Below are positions 6,987 to 15,534 of a DNA stretch of 18,564 bases, piece by piece. Source of the DNA: a virus (lineage: Duplodnaviria; Heunggongvirae; Uroviricota; Caudoviricetes). Location: the IMG/VR virus record IMGVR_UViG_2875713109_000004. One strand, written 5' to 3'. Numbering within the stretch: the first letter of the stretch is position 1; each line of letters begins with the position of its first letter. The notes beneath the pieces were generated by a model. It worked only from the letters and a program-made list of their open reading frames with translations, did not search any database and was not told where the DNA came from. A program made the position numbers and the translations under genes.

Positions 6987-7068
6987 TTACCTGAAAGGTA
7001 ATAATTTTCCTGATTGTTATTCATTCAATTCATATAAGGTTTGACAGGTAATAAACTGTCCTGATGAT
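6987..7068 (+). promoter_or_regulatory. Operator palindrome TTACC-N5-GGTAA (6987-7001) plus candidate promoter (TTGACA 7040-7045, weak -10 about 17 nt downstream) upstream of the tailspike gene
   Basis: Read directly: tTTACCtgaaaGGTAAt; TTGACAGGTAAtaaactgtcctgATGATG; strong GGAG SD before tailspike ATG. The -10 is poor, so promoter activity is uncertain. Confidence 0.4.
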
Positions 7069-7105
7069 GCACGCGCGCCGGGCGCTGCTTTACAGGAGAT
7101 AGGCC

Positions 7106-9457
7106 ATGACGGTATCAACCGTAGTTGACCATAACGATTACATCGGGAACGGCGTTACGACATCCTTCCCGTACAAGTTCCGCATATTTAAGAAAACAGA
7201 TCTGGCTGTATCAGTTGTCGACCTTGACGAAAACATCACGGTTTTGGTGCTGGACACTGACTACACGGTAACAAACGCAGGGGGTTATAACGGCGGCAAT
7301 GTGGTACTAACCTCGCCACTGGCTATCGGCTGGCAGATTTCCATTGCACGCGAGCTGGCGCCAACGCAGGAAACCGACCTGCGGAATCAGGGCAAGTTTT
7401 TCGCCGAGGTGCATGAAGACGCTTTCGATAAGCTGACGATGCTGATCCAGCAGGCATACAGCGTGTTCCGCCTGGCGCTGCGTAAACCGTCCAGCATTGC
7501 GAACTGGTACGACGCCCTTAATAACTACATCAGAAATCTTCGAGACCCACGCGACCCGCAGGATGCGGCAACTAAAAATTATGTTGATACGCTGGCAAGT
7601 AGCAATCTCATCAGAACCTTACGTGTTCCTGAGTCAATCAATCAGTTGCCGGCAGCACTGGAAAGGGCAAATAAAATACCTGCATTTGATAGCTCAGGTA
7701 ATGTTATCGTTGTTCTGCCTCCTTCGGGTTCCGCGTCTGATGTTCTTATTGAATTGGCTAAGCCAACCGGATCAGGTTTAATAGGCTATGGGAACAAAAC
7801 TGTTCAAGAGGCGCTAAATTTAATTTCAGCACGATCTGATCAGTTCGATTCCCTGGAAGAATGGGCGTCTTACAACGCCGAAAAAAAGGTTTTATCATCT
7901 GGAAAGTATTCCATTAGCTCAACTTTGCATATTGAGTGCGAATATCTTGAAATTGAGTCCGGGGTTACTATAAAACCATCATCGGCAATGGTTGCGTTAC
8001 ATTTTGGGAATAACACCAGGAACCTTTTGACGATATTGACGGCAGGGGTGAGTAAGGGTTTAACAAGTTTAACCATTGATGGTGTTAAGTCAGGGGATGT
8101 TTTATGCTTCTGGAATCCATCTGATTTTTCATATTCTGGATTCAGAGATTATTACAGGCAAGGAGAATTTGTCCGCATTTCGAATTACGATGAGACGAAT
8201 GGTGTTGCATATTTTACAGGGGGGCTATGTGATTCTTACCCATCAGGAACCAGAGTTTACAAAATACAAATGAATAAGATTGATGTGACTGGTGAAATTA
8301 TCATTGATTTTCCAGCATATAATTCATCTGCTCTGGGGGTAAGCTTCGAGCAAGTGAGAGACTCTAGTCTTGACGGTTTGAGCGTACTTGTAAAGAATGC
8401 ACCGTATGCATTGCAAATTAAAAGATGTTTAAATGTTATTGGCAATATGGGCTATATAACTCAAAAATCATCACAAACTTCAGGTCTTGATTATGGTCTA
8501 TATATATTGAATAGTCAGTCTTGCACTTTTAATGGGATATTTAGTGCGGAACGACATTCTTCAACTATGACTGGCAATGGAGAAGAATGCTCTATAGTAA
8601 ATAGATATAACAGAGTTTCAGGAACTATATTGACAACTGGGCAGGGCGGGGCAGCAGCCGCAGATTTTCATGGGAATTGTGAGCACAATTCATATAGCGG
8701 GTACATGCAGGGATTGGTATTGGCAGGGCACTGTAACGGAGCGCCTAATGCGCATATTGATTTCGTACCAAACAATCCAAATTGGCCAACCGTGTTAGGC
8801 AGCGAGCTCAAGTCCTTAGAACATGACTTAAGTAATTGTAGAATATATGGCATTGGTGATCCGAACGCATCCAGCAGGGGATGCGTAGATTTCGCCGGAA
8901 ATTCTGATGCTGTTTCTGTAAGTACAGCCATATCAGGTTGCTTAAATTTATCTGAGACCGTCATAGAAACCCCTGCCACATACGCCATCAACATACGCAA
9001 CAGAGGATCACAGGTAGCATACGATATCAATCTCAACGGGATAAAAGTCAGAGGAACCAGCGGCAATAGAGCGATCAGAATCTCATCCGTTTCTGGAGTT
9101 GATGCGACTGACGTGATGCTTTCAGGCATATCTATAACGCAGGGAATGGCAATCGATGTACCGTCCTCATCAAGGAAAGTAGGGCTCAGCATGGCGGGTA
9201 AAGCAAGTGTTGTCGTTGCAAATAACGCCTCTACAGGAACCGTTTCCGTATCATTCCCATACATAATGCCTGGCGCGCCATCATCTATTGTCACAAGTCG
9301 TGGAGGTGCCGTTAGCGGAGTATCAAGCTCAAAAGTGTCAACATCTTATACCTCTGCATCATCAACTGGCTTCAGTGCTTATGCATATACTAATGATGGC
9401 TCCACGTTAACTTATGGCGCGATTACTGCTGAGGTGAACTGGTTGGCTAGTTGGTAG
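7106..9457 (+). CDS. Phage tailspike / tail fibre protein with probable beta-helix (depolymerase-type) receptor-binding domain
   Basis: Track ORF 783 aa; N-terminal GNGVTTSFPYKFRIFKKTDLAVSVVDL and DAATKNYVD motifs typical of tail-fibre virion-anchor regions; the remaining ~600 aa is Ser/Gly/Asn/Thr-rich and repetitive like right-handed beta-helix tailspikes; AT-richer than the N-terminal part. Confidence 0.8.
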   Translation: MTVSTVVDHNDYIGNGVTTSFPYKFRIFKKTDLAVSVVDLDENITVLVLDTDYTVTNAGGYNGGNVVLTSPLAIGWQISIARELAPTQETDLRNQGKFFAEVHEDAFDKLTMLIQQAYSVFRLALRKPSSIANWYDALNNYIRNLRDPRDPQDAATKNYVDTLASSNLIRTLRVPESINQLPAALERANKIPAFDSSGNVIVVLPPSGSASDVLIELAKPTGSGLIGYGNKTVQEALNLISARSDQFDSLEEWASYNAEKKVLSSGKYSISSTLHIECEYLEIESGVTIKPSSAMVALHFGNNTRNLLTILTAGVSKGLTSLTIDGVKSGDVLCFWNPSDFSYSGFRDYYRQGEFVRISNYDETNGVAYFTGGLCDSYPSGTRVYKIQMNKIDVTGEIIIDFPAYNSSALGVSFEQVRDSSLDGLSVLVKNAPYALQIKRCLNVIGNMGYITQKSSQTSGLDYGLYILNSQSCTFNGIFSAERHSSTMTGNGEECSIVNRYNRVSGTILTTGQGGAAAADFHGNCEHNSYSGYMQGLVLAGHCNGAPNAHIDFVPNNPNWPTVLGSELKSLEHDLSNCRIYGIGDPNASSRGCVDFAGNSDAVSVSTAISGCLNLSETVIETPATYAINIRNRGSQVAYDINLNGIKVRGTSGNRAIRISSVSGVDATDVMLSGISITQGMAIDVPSSSRKVGLSMAGKASVVVANNASTGTVSVSFPYIMPGAPSSIVTSRGGAVSGVSSSKVSTSYTSASSTGFSAYAYTNDGSTLTYGAITAEVNWLASW

Positions 9458-9605
9458 TGAATCTTTGATCGAGGGAGACAGGCCATGGAAGGCCTATTAG
9501 GAGCACAACTCCAAATGTTGGCAGCCTTAAAGTGTTTATGTATGCGACGATTCTGATAGAATCACAAAATCTATATGTATTTCTATTAAGAGCGGTGTTC
9601 TGAAT

Positions 9606-14156: not shown

Positions 14157-14436
14157 ACTGCTTCTCATCCTTAACGCTACTATCTGCGGAGGCATTGCAA
14201 TTAGAGTGCTTCTGTTCCGCCGTGATGGGTCACGCCATCGCTGGTGGGGTGGATGGCTCGCCTACCTGCTGATCGTCGTGGTTGCCAGCGTACCCATCCG
14301 CACATTCTACGGGTACTACGTCAGCGCTGACTGGTCAGAAGTCATCATCAAAGCTGTGTTCCTAGCTGCTCTCATCAAGACAAAAGGGAACGTGGTGCAA
14401 ATTTTCAAGATAACGAGGTCACAGCATGGACATTAA
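14143..14436 (+). CDS. Small membrane protein (second holin/antiholin-like protein)
   Basis: Track ORF 97 aa with 2-3 hydrophobic spans; GGAG SD; overlaps upstream gene by 14 nt and endolysin start by 11 nt. Confidence 0.5.
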   Translation: MTSPELLLILNATICGGIAIRVLLFRRDGSRHRWWGGWLAYLLIVVVASVPIRTFYGYYVSADWSEVIIKAVFLAALIKTKGNVVQIFKITRSQHGH

Positions 14437-15055
14437 CCAATTCCGCCGCGCCGCCGGCATTACTGAGCAGCTGGCCGTACGCTGGTTCCCGCATATTATC
14501 GCGGCGATGAAAGAGTTTGGCATCGTCGAACCCGAGCACCAGGCGATGTTTATCGCCCAGGCGGGGCACGAGTCTCGCGGATTTAGTCGGTTGGTGGAGA
14601 GTATGGATTACAGTATTGCAGGCCTGGCTGATTTCGTTCGCTATGGGCGACTCACCCAGGAACAGGCTAATGTTTTGGGCCGTCGATCGTATGAAAAAGT
14701 GCTTCCGATAGAGCGCCAGCGTGCGATCGCCAACCTGGTGTACAGCAAAAGAATGGGGAACAACGGTCCGACTGACGGCTGGTTTTACCTCGGGCGCGGG
14801 CTTATCCAGATCACCGGGCTGAACAACTATCGCGACTGCGGCAATGGCCTGAAGGTGGATCTGGTTAAGCAGCCTGAGCTGCTGGCGCAGGACGAATACG
14901 CGGCCCGCAGCGCGGCGTGGTTCTTCGCAACCAAAGGCTGCATGAAGTACACCGGCGACCTGGTGCGCGTCACGCAGATCATCAATGGTGGGCAGAACGG
15001 CATCGACGACCGGCGTGCGCGGTATATCACTGCCAGTAAGGTGCTGGCGGTATGA
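14426..15055 (+). CDS. Endolysin, glycoside hydrolase family 19 (chitinase-like lysozyme)
   Basis: Track ORF 209 aa; MDINQFRRAAGITEQLAVRWFPHI...FIAQAGHESRGF...YSKRMGNNGPTDGWFYLGRGLIQITGLNNYR closely resembles GH19 endolysins of Salmonella phages as recalled; GAGG SD. Confidence 0.88.
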   Translation: MDINQFRRAAGITEQLAVRWFPHIIAAMKEFGIVEPEHQAMFIAQAGHESRGFSRLVESMDYSIAGLADFVRYGRLTQEQANVLGRRSYEKVLPIERQRAIANLVYSKRMGNNGPTDGWFYLGRGLIQITGLNNYRDCGNGLKVDLVKQPELLAQDEYAARSAAWFFATKGCMKYTGDLVRVTQIINGGQNGIDDRRARYITASKVLAV

Positions 15056-15534
15056 TCTGGGCATTCGTCAAAGCGTACTGGAAACAGTTGCTTATCGTGG
15101 CGATGCTTGCTGCTCTGGTAATCGGCGGCAGGGTTGCCTGGAATGTACACGGCAGCCACCAGTACGATGCCGGGTATGCGCAGGCAAAGGCAGATCAGAA
15201 ACAGGCTGATGATAAAGCTCGTCAGCATGACGAACAGGAAAAAGCGACCAATGAACGTGAAGCGCAGCAGAGGATCGACCAGGCGCGCAATGATGCTCTT
15301 GATGCTGCCGCTCGCGCTGGCCGGTTGCAGCAACAGCTCGTTGCCATCCGTGAGCAGCTCAGGCAGTATAACGCCACTATCGGCACTGGGGCGTCAGCCG
15401 CAGACACCGGAGTTTTGCTTGCCGACGTGCTCAGCAAATCTCTCGAGCGAAACCGACAACTGGCAGAGTACGCTGACCGGGCCGCCGAAGCCGGACGAGT
15501 CTGTGAAAAGCAGTACGATTCGCTGACACGGTGA
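15052..15534 (+). CDS. Rz-type i-spanin
   Basis: Track ORF 160 aa; N-terminal TM (LLIVAMLAALVIGG), Gln/Ala/Arg-rich coiled coil; ATG overlaps endolysin stop (ATGA at 15052-15055). Confidence 0.75.
   Translation: MIWAFVKAYWKQLLIVAMLAALVIGGRVAWNVHGSHQYDAGYAQAKADQKQADDKARQHDEQEKATNEREAQQRIDQARNDALDAAARAGRLQQQLVAIREQLRQYNATIGTGASAADTGVLLADVLSKSLERNRQLAEYADRAAEAGRVCEKQYDSLTR
15251..15526 (+). CDS. Rz1-type o-spanin lipoprotein embedded in +1 frame inside Rz
   Basis: Within track ORF 15134..15526; from ATG 15251: MNVKRSRGSTRRAMMLLMLPLALAGC... has a basic n-region, hydrophobic core and lipobox L-A-G-C; Pro-rich mature part; entirely inside the Rz gene. Start could also be 15290. Confidence 0.6.
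   Translation: MNVKRSRGSTRRAMMLLMLPLALAGCSNSSLPSVSSSGSITPLSALGRQPQTPEFCLPTCSANLSSETDNWQSTLTGPPKPDESVKSSTIR

What the first reader, a model, noticed from the sequence alone, without database searches (positions are those of the whole stretch)
6987..15534. Hypothesis: a domesticated, SOS-gated tailspike-plus-lysis module
The remnant has lost virion genes but keeps exactly the parts needed to make and release a soluble polysaccharide-degrading tailspike: the tailspike gene, a complete holin/endolysin/Rz/Rz1 cassette, and a repressor/LexA control layer, with operator-like motifs upstream of both the tailspike (6987-7001) and the lysis/gtr gap (13631-13645). This could work as a kamikaze depolymerase-release or biofilm-remodelling system. 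It could equally be a decaying prophage caught mid-erosion. This is speculative and rests on gene content and motif positions only.
Basis: inference. Interest (0 to 1): 0.7.

Follow-up and report, generated by a model that had tools for sequence, protein, structure and literature searches.

The report
Recently deleted epsilon15-like prophage remnant
This is an ordinary defective prophage: an epsilon15-type phage in E. coli lost its replication and virion genes in one recent 25.5-kb deletion, which also cut the small antirepressor gene that links the phage to DNA damage, so nothing suggests a domesticated enzyme-release device.

Summary
The "domesticated, SOS-gated tailspike-plus-lysis module" reading is not supported.

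- **Origin.** The window is E. coli PSS-07 DNA carrying an epsilon15/phiV10-type (Uetakevirus) prophage at the guaA attachment site.
- **One recent deletion.** Four other complete E. coli genomes carry the intact phage at the same site. It differs from the window by about 11 substitutions in prophage DNA and one 25,472-bp deletion with 2 bp of junction microhomology. Only 1 of 5,426 genomes has this deletion.
- **Tailspike-to-lysis order is standard.** It matches the plaque-forming phages epsilon15 and BUCT554.
- **Operators are ancestral.** TTACC-N5-GGTAA occurs 6 times in the window (0.3 expected). The same sites precede every transcription unit of the intact sibling and of epsilon15, whose RefSeq record already labels seven as repressor-binding sites.
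- **The SOS switch is known and damaged.** It is the Rep/Ant/LexA system solved for phage SPC32H (PDB 5D50). The deletion cuts ant after codon 53 of 86, removing conserved residues and about two helices, so the gate is probably broken.
- **Relatives decay.** Related remnants have truncated tailspikes or a frameshifted holin-like gene.

Best reading: a Rep-locked, decaying prophage that still supplies immunity and probably O-antigen conversion.

The parts
1..1254 (+). Tyrosine integrase at the left end of the prophage. The attL core lies about 190 bp upstream, outside the window, at the 3' end of guaA.
   Evidence: Pfam Arm-DNA-bind_3, Phage_int_M and Phage_integrase. RefSeq annotation. attL core found at L001 3794-3810.
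2810..3058 (-). AlpA/Xis-like small helix-turn-helix protein, a probable excisionase. It is part of the intact leftward early operon (methylase, PerC-like, RecT, exonuclease; 1259-5258).
   Evidence: RefSeq annotation. The epsilon15 gp33 equivalent is annotated 'excisionase and transcriptional regulator'. No internal stops.
5276..5352 (.). Two perfect Rep operators (5276-5290 and 5338-5352), OL-like. They abut the -10 hexamers of two leftward promoter-like sites.
   Evidence: The equivalent sites are annotated as 'repressor' binding in epsilon15.
5410..6000 (-). Rep, the immunity repressor. It has two helix-turn-helix regions and no S24 peptidase domain, so it is not expected to be cleaved through RecA.
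   Evidence: Pfam. Homologous to SPC32H Rep, PDB 5D50_A, E 1.2e-48 over residues 1-192.
6056..6118 (.). OR-like operators between rep and the cro-like gene: 6056-6070 (perfect) and 6104-6118 (one mismatch).
6155..6385 (+). Cro-like small regulator.
   Evidence: phrog_35 'transcriptional repressor', E 2.7e-10. Position is divergent from rep.
6535..6744 (+). Conserved 69-aa cysteine-rich protein (phrog_1081). It is the last intact rightward early gene before the deletion.
6752..6753 (.). Deletion junction. Window 6753 corresponds to sibling L003 13659, 10 nt into the DnaT-like gene. Window 6752 corresponds to L003 39130, inside ant. There are 2 bp of overlap and 25,472 bp are missing (replication genes, terminase, portal, capsid, tail and injection genes).
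   Evidence: blastn of the window against the intact sibling. Sibling annotation.
6701..6910 (-). Truncated antirepressor gene ant: 53 native codons followed by 16 foreign codons read from the antisense of the orf69 3' end.
   Evidence: Translations. The full-length 86-aa form matches SPC32H Ant, PDB 5D50_E, E 4.8e-44. The lost part carries near-invariant residues and helices H47-62 (part) and H67-85.
6930..6949 (.). LexA (SOS) box CACTGTATTTATGTACAGTA, 22 nt upstream of the ant start codon.
   Evidence: Conserved at the same place in epsilon15, BUCT554 and the sibling. LexA control of Ant in SPC32H is cited in review PMC7380047.
6987..7001 (.). Perfect Rep operator between the divergent ant and tailspike genes. 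It ends 105 nt upstream of the tailspike ATG.
   Evidence: The equivalent epsilon15 site 19895-19911 is annotated as a 'repressor' binding site.
7041..7068 (+). Sigma-70-like promoter candidate for the tailspike (TTGACA-16-GATGAT, 10 of 12).
   Evidence: This is a consensus match only.
7106..9457 (+). Tailspike. It has an N-terminal virion-attachment domain and a C-terminal domain related to receptor-cleaving tailspikes.
   Evidence: The protein is identical to that of the intact sibling (same RefSeq protein).
9606..10817 (+). Wzy/O-antigen-ligase-like membrane protein in a low-G+C conversion cargo region.
   Evidence: Weak Pfam Wzy_C match. G+C of 34-38%. epsilon15 carries an O-antigen-ligase-family gene (annotated) in the same position.
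10851..13598 (-). gtrC-like (10851-12392), gtrB (12310-13239) and gtrA (13236-13598) O-antigen glucosylation genes.
   Evidence: Pfam Glycos_transf_2 and GtrA. RefSeq annotation. The same module is present in phage BUCT554.
13631..13645 (.). Rep operator with one mismatch, 33 nt upstream of gtrA and 107 nt upstream of the first lysis gene.
   Evidence: There is a perfect site at the same place in epsilon15 (24704-24718) and a one-mismatch site in BUCT554 (21929-21943). All three end about 106-107 nt from the first lysis-gene start.
13752..15534 (+). Lysis cassette: holin-like gene 13752-14156, holin 14143-14436, GH19 endolysin 14426-15055, Rz 15052-15534 and embedded Rz1 15251-15526.
15645..15661 (.). 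attR core ATTGAGTGGGAATGATT. It is followed by a terminator-like hairpin at 15686-15713 and the host genes yfgI and yfgH.
   Evidence: The core sequence is as reported for phiV10, epsilon15 and ZX5 (PMC9782041).

Best explanation
The region is the right arm of a defective epsilon15/phiV10-type (Uetakevirus) prophage. The prophage sits between guaA and yfgI in E. coli PSS-07.

**How it arose.** One illegitimate-recombination deletion of 25,472 bp, with 2 bp of junction microhomology, removed everything from the start of the replication genes to the 3' part of the antirepressor gene ant. The two prophage arms were left behind.

**Why the gene order looks purposeful.** Tailspike, then O-antigen conversion genes, then holin/endolysin/Rz/Rz1, then attR is simply the normal end of this phage type.

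**What the motifs are.** TTACC-N5-GGTAA is the operator of the phage repressor Rep. In complete relatives these sites stand in front of every transcription unit: int, PL, PR, ruvC, terS, the portal operon, the tailspike and the lysis genes.

**How induction normally works.** Rep has no self-cleavage domain. In this phage group DNA damage acts through LexA, which releases transcription of ant. Ant, an 86-aa tetramer, then pulls Rep tetramers off the DNA.

**State of this remnant (inferred).**
- Rep, its operators and the LexA box survive, but Ant is cut after residue 53.
- SOS induction would therefore most likely produce a useless Ant fragment.
- Rep would stay bound, and the tailspike and lysis genes would stay silent. 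The prophage is locked.
- The element probably still gives the host Rep-based immunity, O-antigen modification (gtrABC and the Wzy-like gene) and the RecT/exonuclease and methylase genes.
- The silent tailspike and lysis genes are carried along next to them.

**Shown:** the origin, the deletion, the homologies, and the motif statistics and conservation.
**Inferred:** that truncated Ant is inactive, and that Rep directly represses the tailspike and lysis promoters.
For: **Source and synteny.**
- The window is 99.9% identical to E. coli PSS-07. Annotation places it between guaA and yfgI, yfgH.
- The gene order matches epsilon15 and the isolated phage BUCT554.
- The att core is present on both sides and matches the published attP core (PMC9782041).

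**Single recent deletion.**
- The intact sibling sits at the same site in USMARC-50748.
- Breakpoints are window 6753 = L003 13659 and window 6752 = L003 39130.
- There are 6 mismatches in the left arm and 5 in the right arm within prophage DNA, and every gene is open.
- The missing 25 kb is present at about 100% identity in four other genomes.
- Only PSS-07 has the deleted form among 5,426 genomes.

**Operators.**
- The window has 6 sites against 0.3 expected.
- The intact sibling has 12 sites, all intergenic, one group per transcription unit.
- epsilon15 has the same core at the same places, and seven sites are annotated 'repressor' in its RefSeq record.

**Switch.**
- Rep matches 5D50_A at E 1e-48, and full-length Ant matches 5D50_E at E 5e-44.
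- The LexA box is conserved.
- The mechanism is summarised in PMC7380047, PMC9638917 and PMC9986798.
- Rep overexpression cut holin and endolysin transcripts by more than 99.9% in the relative ZX5 (PMC9782041).

**Ant damage.**
- 33 of 86 residues are lost, including the near-invariant A55, L56, Y59, V60, Q64, D69, H73, L74, D75, Y76 and the invariant C77.
- About 60 of 70 homologue clusters are exactly 86 aa long.
- The model (mean pLDDT 70) puts the cut inside helix 47-62 and removes helix 67-85.
Against: - No expression or induction data exist for this strain.
- Inactivity of the 53-residue Ant fragment is inferred, not tested.
- The primary SPC32H papers, which define the Rep-contact residues of Ant, could not be read.
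- Rep binding at the tailspike and lysis sites is a prediction. The tailspike site sits about 40 bp upstream of the candidate -35 hexamer rather than over the promoter. No promoter was detected upstream of the holin by the simple scan. Rep's effect there, whether occlusion, looping or none, is therefore open.
- All lysis and tailspike genes are intact, which is also what a selected module would show. With only 11 substitutions the two readings cannot be separated by dN/dS.
- Several independent remnants in other strains keep the same right arm. That is compatible with some selective retention.
Confidence: 0.87

Rival explanations
1. First reader's hypothesis. The remnant is a domesticated, host-selected device. 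DNA damage lifts repression, a fraction of cells make soluble tailspike depolymerase and lyse through the holin/endolysin/spanin cassette, and the released enzyme remodels neighbouring cells' surface polysaccharide or biofilm.
For: - The tailspike, all five lysis genes, Rep, the operators and the LexA box are intact.
- The tailspike C-terminus resembles receptor-cleaving tailspikes, one of them deposited as a 'particle-associated lyase'.
- Several independent remnants keep tailspike, conversion genes and lysis genes.
Against: - The architecture and the operators are ancestral to complete phages.
- The deletion is a singleton and is nearly identical to intact prophages, so there has been no period of retention.
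- Ant, the only SOS link, is truncated here. In the other remnants examined it is truncated or deleted, apart from Z226-5, where the gene is intact but its promoter is interrupted by an insertion.
- The tailspike is truncated in two remnants, and holin 1 is frameshifted in another.
Confidence: 0.04
2. Conditionally active, helper-dependent element. The remnant is silent on its own but is switched on in trans by full-length Ant from a co-resident or incoming epsilon15-type phage during SOS. Operators and Ant are conserved across the genus. The remnant would then add its lysis proteins and an alternative tailspike, whose N-terminal attachment domain is 66-91% identical among relatives, to the helper's burst.
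For: - The same operator core is used by phages whose Rep proteins are only about 45% identical.
- Ant is 70-99% identical across the genus.
- Antirepressor cross-talk between prophages is documented for Salmonella Gifsy and Fels phages (PMC7380047).
- int, the Xis-like gene and both att cores are intact.
Against: - No second epsilon15-type prophage was shown in PSS-07. The lysis cassette has a single copy there (places_in_record 1).
- Whether a foreign Ant acts on this Rep is untested.
- The remnant lacks replication genes and terS, so it could not be efficiently packaged.
- This would be a by-product of shared regulation, not evidence of a selected function.
Confidence: 0.08
3. Assembly artefact. 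The prophage in PSS-07 is really complete, and the 25-kb gap is a misassembly.
For: None specific. The deleted form is seen in only one genome.
Against: - The record is a closed chromosome with continuous sequence across the junction.
- The junction has the 2-bp microhomology typical of real deletions.
- There are no repeats flanking the junction that would collapse an assembly.
- Similar independent deletions exist in many other assemblies.
Confidence: 0.01

Closest known systems
Salmonella phage epsilon15 and E. coli phages phiV10 and ZX5 (genus Uetakevirus); Enterobacter phage BUCT554
   Same: - Same integration site and att core at the 3' end of guaA.
- Same prophage gene order: int, early genes, rep, cro, then ant, tailspike, O-antigen conversion genes, two holin-type genes, GH19 endolysin, Rz/Rz1.
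- Same operator core at the same positions.
- Nucleotide identity is 78-85% over shared parts.
   Different: - The window lacks the whole replication and morphogenesis block, 25.5 kb.
- Its ant gene is truncated.
- Its tailspike receptor domain differs from epsilon15's, and it pairs a Wzy-like gene with gtrABC as conversion cargo.
Rep-Ant-LexA antirepression switch of Salmonella phage SPC32H (PDB 5D4Z, 5D50; Kim & Ryu 2013; Kim et al. 2016)
   Same: - Rep homologue at E 1e-48 and Ant homologue at E 5e-44 for the full-length sibling copy.
- LexA box directly upstream of ant.
- Rep lacks a self-cleavage domain.
   Different: Here Ant stops being native after residue 53 of 86. The switch is therefore present in anatomy but probably not in function.
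Intact sibling prophage in E. coli USMARC-50748, CFIAFB20190172, ECE228 and ECE218
   Same: It is 99.8-100% identical over everything the window retains, sits at the same chromosomal site, and encodes an identical tailspike protein.
   Different: The sibling has the 25,472 bp that the window lacks, including full-length ant.
Domesticated phage-derived release systems (R- and F-type pyocins or tailocins, gene transfer agents, colicin lysis modules)
   Same: These also pair SOS-linked regulation with a phage-type lysis cassette that releases a phage-derived product from a sacrificed subpopulation. This comparison rests on established knowledge, not on tests run here.
   Different: - Those systems are conserved as defective units across species or clades, with intact regulators.
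- This remnant is a singleton, one deletion away from a live phage, and has a damaged inducer.

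Membership tests
Uetakevirus (epsilon15-like) prophage | Integration at the 3' end of guaA with the att core ATTGAGTGGGAATGATT | tested here: met
   attR lies at window 15645-15661 (exact match). attL lies at L001 3794-3810 (one mismatch) at the end of guaA. The core is as published for phiV10, epsilon15 and ZX5 (PMC9782041).
Uetakevirus (epsilon15-like) prophage | Conserved gene order and sequence similarity of the early, immunity, tailspike N-terminal and lysis modules | tested here: met
   - megablast gives 78-85% identity to BUCT554, phiV10, SPN1S and epsilon15.
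- tblastn against epsilon15 and BUCT554 gives holin 1 82-93%, endolysin 84-87%, Rz 88-89% and tailspike N-terminus 76-89%.
Uetakevirus (epsilon15-like) prophage | Complete morphogenesis and replication modules, meaning a viable phage | tested here: not met
   Terminase, portal, capsid, tail and DnaT/P-like genes are absent. They lie in the 25,472 bp that only the sibling carries.
SPC32H-type Rep/Ant/LexA antirepression switch | Rep homologue without an S24 autocleavage domain | tested here: met
   Match to 5D50_A at E 1.2e-48. Pfam finds only helix-turn-helix domains.
SPC32H-type Rep/Ant/LexA antirepression switch | Full-length (86-aa) Ant | tested here: not met
   The window ORF is native for 53 residues and then diverges. 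The family length is 86 aa in about 60 of 70 clusters. The conserved C-terminal residues are lost.
SPC32H-type Rep/Ant/LexA antirepression switch | LexA box at the ant promoter | tested here: met
   The box lies at 6932-6947 and is conserved in epsilon15, BUCT554 and the sibling. Binding was not tested.
SPC32H-type Rep/Ant/LexA antirepression switch | Rep operators at the early promoters | tested here: met
   There are two sites on each side of rep. The leftward pair abuts the -10 hexamers of promoter-like sites.
Domesticated phage-derived module (tailocin- or GTA-like) | The same defective form is conserved across related host lineages | tested here: not met
   One of 5,426 complete E. coli genomes carries this deletion. 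Four carry the intact phage.
Domesticated phage-derived module (tailocin- or GTA-like) | Purifying selection on the retained genes after loss of autonomy | tested here: inconclusive
   - Only 11 substitutions separate the remnant from the intact phage, too few for dN/dS.
- In other remnants the tailspikes are truncated (L004, L007) and one holin-like gene is frameshifted (L012).
Domesticated phage-derived module (tailocin- or GTA-like) | Regulated expression and release of the product | not testable with these tools
   This needs induction experiments on strain PSS-07.
Canonical Gram-negative phage lysis cassette | Holin, endolysin, and Rz with an embedded Rz1 lipoprotein | tested here: met
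   Pfam Phage_holin_8, Phage_holin_3_7, Glyco_hydro_19 and DUF2514. Rz1 has an LAGC lipobox.

The most novel reading that the evidence does not exclude
Epsilon15-type prophages across Enterobacteriaceae are repeatedly 'grounded' in the same way. Deletions, insertions or frameshifts knock out ant, usually together with the morphogenesis genes. Rep plus the tailspike, conversion and lysis arm survive.

**Why Rep and the lysis cassette might persist together.** They may form an addiction-like pair: losing Rep first would unleash lysis.

**Possible non-random breakpoints.**
- Right-hand breakpoints may cluster within a stretch of about 45 bp of ant (codons 38-53).
- Left-hand breakpoints may cluster just after orf69 or at the terS/terL boundary.
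- This would point to a structural or mechanistic deletion hotspot, for example Rep-mediated DNA looping between operators.

**What it would mean.** The remnants would be a recurrent, trans-inducible class of element rather than random debris.
Probability: 0.15. Interest if true: 0.45.

Novelty: new member of a known kind. Interest (0 to 1): 0.15.

Why it matters
As found, it matters little. It is a well-documented example of how a temperate phage becomes a locked, defective prophage in one step. It also shows that gene order and operator motifs which look designed in a remnant can be plain inheritance from the complete phage.

It has two modest uses:
- **A natural pair for experiments.** PSS-07 (deleted, ant truncated) and USMARC-50748 (intact) could be used to test whether Rep directly controls the tailspike and lysis promoters. 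They could also test whether loss of Ant alone locks the prophage.
- **A possible route of prophage inactivation.** Ant is lost or disabled in every related remnant examined. Antirepressor loss may therefore be a common route of prophage inactivation in this genus.

Tried and rejected
- **Primary papers unavailable.** Kim & Ryu 2013, Kim et al. 2016, Kropinski et al. 2007 and Bobay et al. 2014 are not held. The mechanism therefore rests on PDB homology, the epsilon15 RefSeq annotation and secondary papers.
- **Lysis versus virion gene counts.** I compared how many E. coli genomes carry the lysis cassette (531) with how many carry the portal gene (28) to look for an excess of lysis-only remnants.
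  - I rejected this as uninformative, because megablast sensitivity differs with gene conservation.
  - The whole 25-kb central block matches 671 genomes, so there is no obvious excess.
- **Deletion hotspot inside ant.** Seven independent breakpoints fall within about 45 bp. I down-weighted this for three reasons.
  - The cases were found by searching with the Ant N-terminus.
  - Clustering at 90% identity hides longer fragments.
  - A DNA search that did not depend on the Ant protein fragment, limited to complete E. coli genomes and to megablast sensitivity, found only PSS-07 with a clear ant-internal breakpoint among 29 genomes.
- **Promoter upstream of the holin.** The consensus scan found none. 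A weak TATGAT-type candidate seen by eye is not reported as a part.
- **Shared late-promoter element.** I looked for one between the operator and the ATG of the tailspike, portal and lysis units. Nothing convincing appeared beyond similar spacing.
- **NCBIfam.** It gave no informative hits for the tailspike, the Wzy-like protein or the small ORFs.
- **P0065.** This 59-aa Ant fragment could not be placed on a contig.

Full report
**What the window is.**
- The whole 18.5-kb window is 99.9% identical to the chromosome of E. coli PSS-07 (NZ_AP027673.1).
- RefSeq annotation places it between guaA on the left and yfgI, yfgH on the right, followed by an IS3 copy.
- Pfam, PHROGs and PDB comparisons give this map:
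  - integrase (1-1254, +);
  - a leftward early operon with a methylase, a PerC-like gene, an AlpA/Xis-like gene, RecT and an exonuclease (1259-5258, -);
  - repressor (5410-6000, -);
  - cro-like gene (6155-6385, +);
  - a 69-aa conserved ORF (6535-6744, +);
  - a short reverse ORF (6701-6910, -);
  - tailspike (7106-9457, +);
  - a Wzy-like gene (9606-10817, +);
  - gtrC-like, gtrB and gtrA (10851-13598, -);
  - two holin-type genes, a GH19 endolysin, and Rz with embedded Rz1 (13752-15534, +);
  - the attachment core ATTGAGTGGGAATGATT (15645-15661).
- The matching attL core lies at the end of guaA, just left of the window.
- The best phage matches are the Uetakevirus group: epsilon15, phiV10, SPN1S, SPC32H, ZX5 and Enterobacter phage BUCT554.

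**Checking the observation.**
- The tailspike has the group's N-terminal attachment domain. Its C-terminal domain is related to the LKA1 gp49 tailspike (4RU4, E 6.5e-26) and to a chain deposited as 'particle-associated lyase' (4Y9V).
- The lysis cassette is complete. It includes an Rz1 lipoprotein (lipobox LAGC) that closely resembles the epsilon15 Rz1-like protein. No gene in the window has an internal stop.
- The two 'operator-like' motifs are part of a family. TTACC-N5-GGTAA with at most one mismatch occurs six times in the window against 0.30 expected, and no shuffle in 200 reached six. All six sites are intergenic.
  - Two sites lie on each side of the repressor gene.
  - One lies between the short reverse ORF and the tailspike.
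  - One lies between gtrA and the first lysis gene.
- The LexA box (6932-6947) is not significant as a bare pattern. It sits directly upstream of the reverse ORF and is conserved at that position in epsilon15, BUCT554 and the intact sibling.

**The remnant is one deletion away from a live phage.**
- Strain USMARC-50748 carries a complete prophage at the same guaA site.
- Aligning the window to it gives two collinear blocks.
  - Window 1-6753 matches the sibling's left arm with 6 mismatches.
  - Window 6752 onward matches its right arm.
  - The blocks overlap by 2 bp, and the sibling has 25,472 bp between them.
- The missing DNA holds the DnaT-like and P-like replication genes, RuvC, small and large terminase, portal, protease, capsid, tail and injection proteins.
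- That 25-kb block is present at essentially 100% identity in four complete genomes (USMARC-50748, CFIAFB20190172, ECE228, ECE218), each of which also has the window's exact right arm.
- Within prophage DNA the remnant and the sibling differ at 11 positions in about 15.6 kb. The tailspike protein is the same RefSeq protein in both.
- Among 5,426 complete E. coli genomes only PSS-07 has this junction.
- The deletion is therefore recent. There has been no evolutionary interval over which 'retention' of the tailspike and lysis genes could be read as selection, and there are too few substitutions for dN/dS.

**The architecture is inherited, not assembled.**
- In the prophage orientation, epsilon15 and BUCT554 end with ant (reverse), tailspike, conversion genes (reverse), two holin-type genes, endolysin, Rz/Rz1 and att. 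BUCT554 even carries gtrABC in the same place.
- The tailspike sits next to the lysis cassette because that is how the genus is built.

**The operators are the phage's own.**
- In the intact sibling the same motif occurs 12 times, always intergenic, in one group per transcription unit: upstream of int, at PL (2), PR (2), ruvC (2), terS (2), the portal operon, the tailspike and the lysis genes.
- epsilon15 uses the same core at the same places.
- Its RefSeq record already annotates seven sites as repressor-binding sites, including 19895-19911 between gp19 and the tailspike gene.
- epsilon15 also has a perfect, unannotated site (24704-24718) between its conversion genes and the first lysis gene. 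BUCT554 has a one-mismatch site there.
- In all three phages this site ends about 106-107 nt from the first lysis-gene start codon, although the neighbouring conversion cargo differs.
- How Rep acts at the late sites is not settled. The tailspike site lies about 40 bp upstream of the best promoter-like match (7041-7068) rather than over it. Rep is a tetramer with a looping-type tetramerisation domain (PMC9986798).
- In the relative ZX5, Rep overexpression cut holin and endolysin transcripts by more than 99.9% (PMC9782041).

**The SOS link is known, and here it is damaged.**
- The repressor matches the SPC32H repressor (PDB 5D50 chain A, E 1.2e-48) and has no peptidase domain.
- The sibling's 86-aa reverse ORF matches the SPC32H antirepressor Ant (5D50 chain E, E 4.8e-44).
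- In that system LexA represses ant. After DNA damage Ant is made and, as a tetramer, disassembles Rep tetramers (PMC7380047, PMC9638917).
- The right end of the deletion lies inside ant. The window ORF is native for 53 residues and then reads 16 unrelated codons.
- The lost 33 residues include eleven invariant or near-invariant positions.
- About 60 of 70 homologue clusters are exactly 86 aa long.
- An AlphaFold model (mean pLDDT 70) places the cut inside helix 47-62 and removes helix 67-85.
- I infer that the fragment cannot inactivate Rep. DNA damage would then no longer induce the remnant. This is inference; the primary structural paper could not be read.

**Other remnants.**
- Four further lineages of complete E. 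coli genomes have independent central deletions at the same site.
  - Z226-5 keeps ant, but ISEc53 plus a ClbS-like gene is inserted at its LexA box.
  - 2017.15.02CC has an IS1-mediated deletion that removes ant and the tailspike N-terminus.
  - AST205 has lost ant and keeps its tailspike.
  - FG31-1 has lost ant and its tailspike is truncated.
- Searching protein databases with the Ant fragment found about ten more disrupted ant alleles.
  - Contexts recovered for six of them show large deletions ending in ant, with the tailspike, conversion and lysis arm kept wherever the contig extends that far.
  - One is an epsilon15 prophage 99.9% identical to the phage (L014).
  - In the Enterobacter mori remnant L012, whose Rep is 98.5% identical to the window's, the first holin-like gene is frameshifted.
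- Across remnants, Rep is always kept where the region is visible and the lysis cassette usually is. The tailspike is sometimes broken, and Ant is disabled in every remnant examined.
- That pattern fits decay of a repressor-locked prophage. Losing Ant protects the host from SOS-triggered lysis. Losing Rep before the lysis genes would presumably be lethal.

**A loose end.**
- The right-hand breakpoints of seven independent deletions fall within about 45 bp of ant. Left-hand breakpoints fall either just after orf69 or at the terS/terL boundary.
- This could reflect a hotspot. However, the cases were ascertained through Ant fragments in a database clustered at 90% identity.
- A DNA search that did not depend on the Ant protein fragment, limited to complete E. 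coli genomes and to megablast sensitivity, found only PSS-07 with a clear ant-internal breakpoint among 29 genomes.
- I record it as unexplained rather than as a finding.

**Verdict.**
- This is a new instance of a known kind: a defective Uetakevirus prophage with the known Rep/Ant/LexA switch, locked by truncation of Ant.
- It probably still provides immunity and O-antigen conversion.
- Interest is low.

Noticed in passing
L010 10001-10291; L012 10001-10192; L013 10001-10273; L014 10001-10234; L015 5785-6012; L016 1195-1338; proteins P0007, P0064, P0065: There are many independent disruptions of the antirepressor gene ant in Escherichia, Salmonella-type and Enterobacter assemblies. Seven large-deletion breakpoints fall within about 45 bp of ant (codons 38-53). 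Left breakpoints cluster after orf69 or at the terS/terL boundary. P0007 and P0064 are small in-gene frameshift lesions. This may be a hotspot or an ascertainment effect.
   Followed up: partly
L005 9207-11093 (E. coli Z226-5): An ISL3-family element (ISEc53) with a ClbS/DfsB-family gene (colibactin self-protection type) is inserted in or beside the ant LexA box and promoter of a related remnant. It separates an intact ant from its upstream control region.
   Followed up: partly
L003 18592-18607; L009 8212-8227: A second CTGT-N8-ACAG LexA-type box lies upstream of the small ORF that precedes terS in the intact sibling, and at the equivalent place in BUCT554. It suggests a second SOS-controlled gene in this phage group. 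This region is deleted from the window.
   Followed up: no
L008 (epsilon15) versus window 5276-6118: The operator core TTACC-N5-GGTAA is shared by phages whose Rep proteins are only about 45% identical (epsilon15 versus this prophage). Immunity specificity, if any, must lie in the spacer or flanks. Otherwise these phages may be cross-immune.
   Followed up: no
L003 6850-6864, about 57 nt upstream of the int start and just left of window position 1: A one-mismatch Rep-operator-like site (TTACCTGAAAGGTAT) lies upstream of the integrase gene. The same is seen in epsilon15 (26882-26896) and BUCT554 (19769-19783). It hints that Rep also controls int.
   Followed up: no
window 9500-12500: A low-G+C (34-38%) cargo region combines a Wzy/O-antigen-ligase-like gene on the + strand with a gtrABC glucosylation operon on the - strand. 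This gives two different O-antigen-modifying functions in one conversion module. The gtrC-like protein has no Pfam or PHROG family match.
   Followed up: no
window 17174-18564: An IS3-family element (orfA/orfB with a programmed frameshift) is inserted between yfgH and yfgG. It is absent from the sibling strain at this position.
   Followed up: no
window about 16065 (yfgI): There is a 6-bp in-frame indel and several substitutions in the host gene yfgI relative to strain USMARC-50748. The host flank is therefore more diverged than the prophage, consistent with the phage having been acquired independently or more recently than the strains split.
   Followed up: no
L013, reverse-complemented as, 9877-10125: A 249-bp fragment from the morphogenesis region of the reference phage is stranded between truncated terS and truncated ant. 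This shows that the remnant arose by at least two successive deletions.
   Followed up: partly
window 6535-6744: A 69-aa protein (phrog_1081) with two Cys-X2-Cys/His-type pairs looks like a zinc ribbon. It is conserved directly downstream of cro throughout the genus and its function is unknown. Several deletion left ends fall at or just after it.
   Followed up: no
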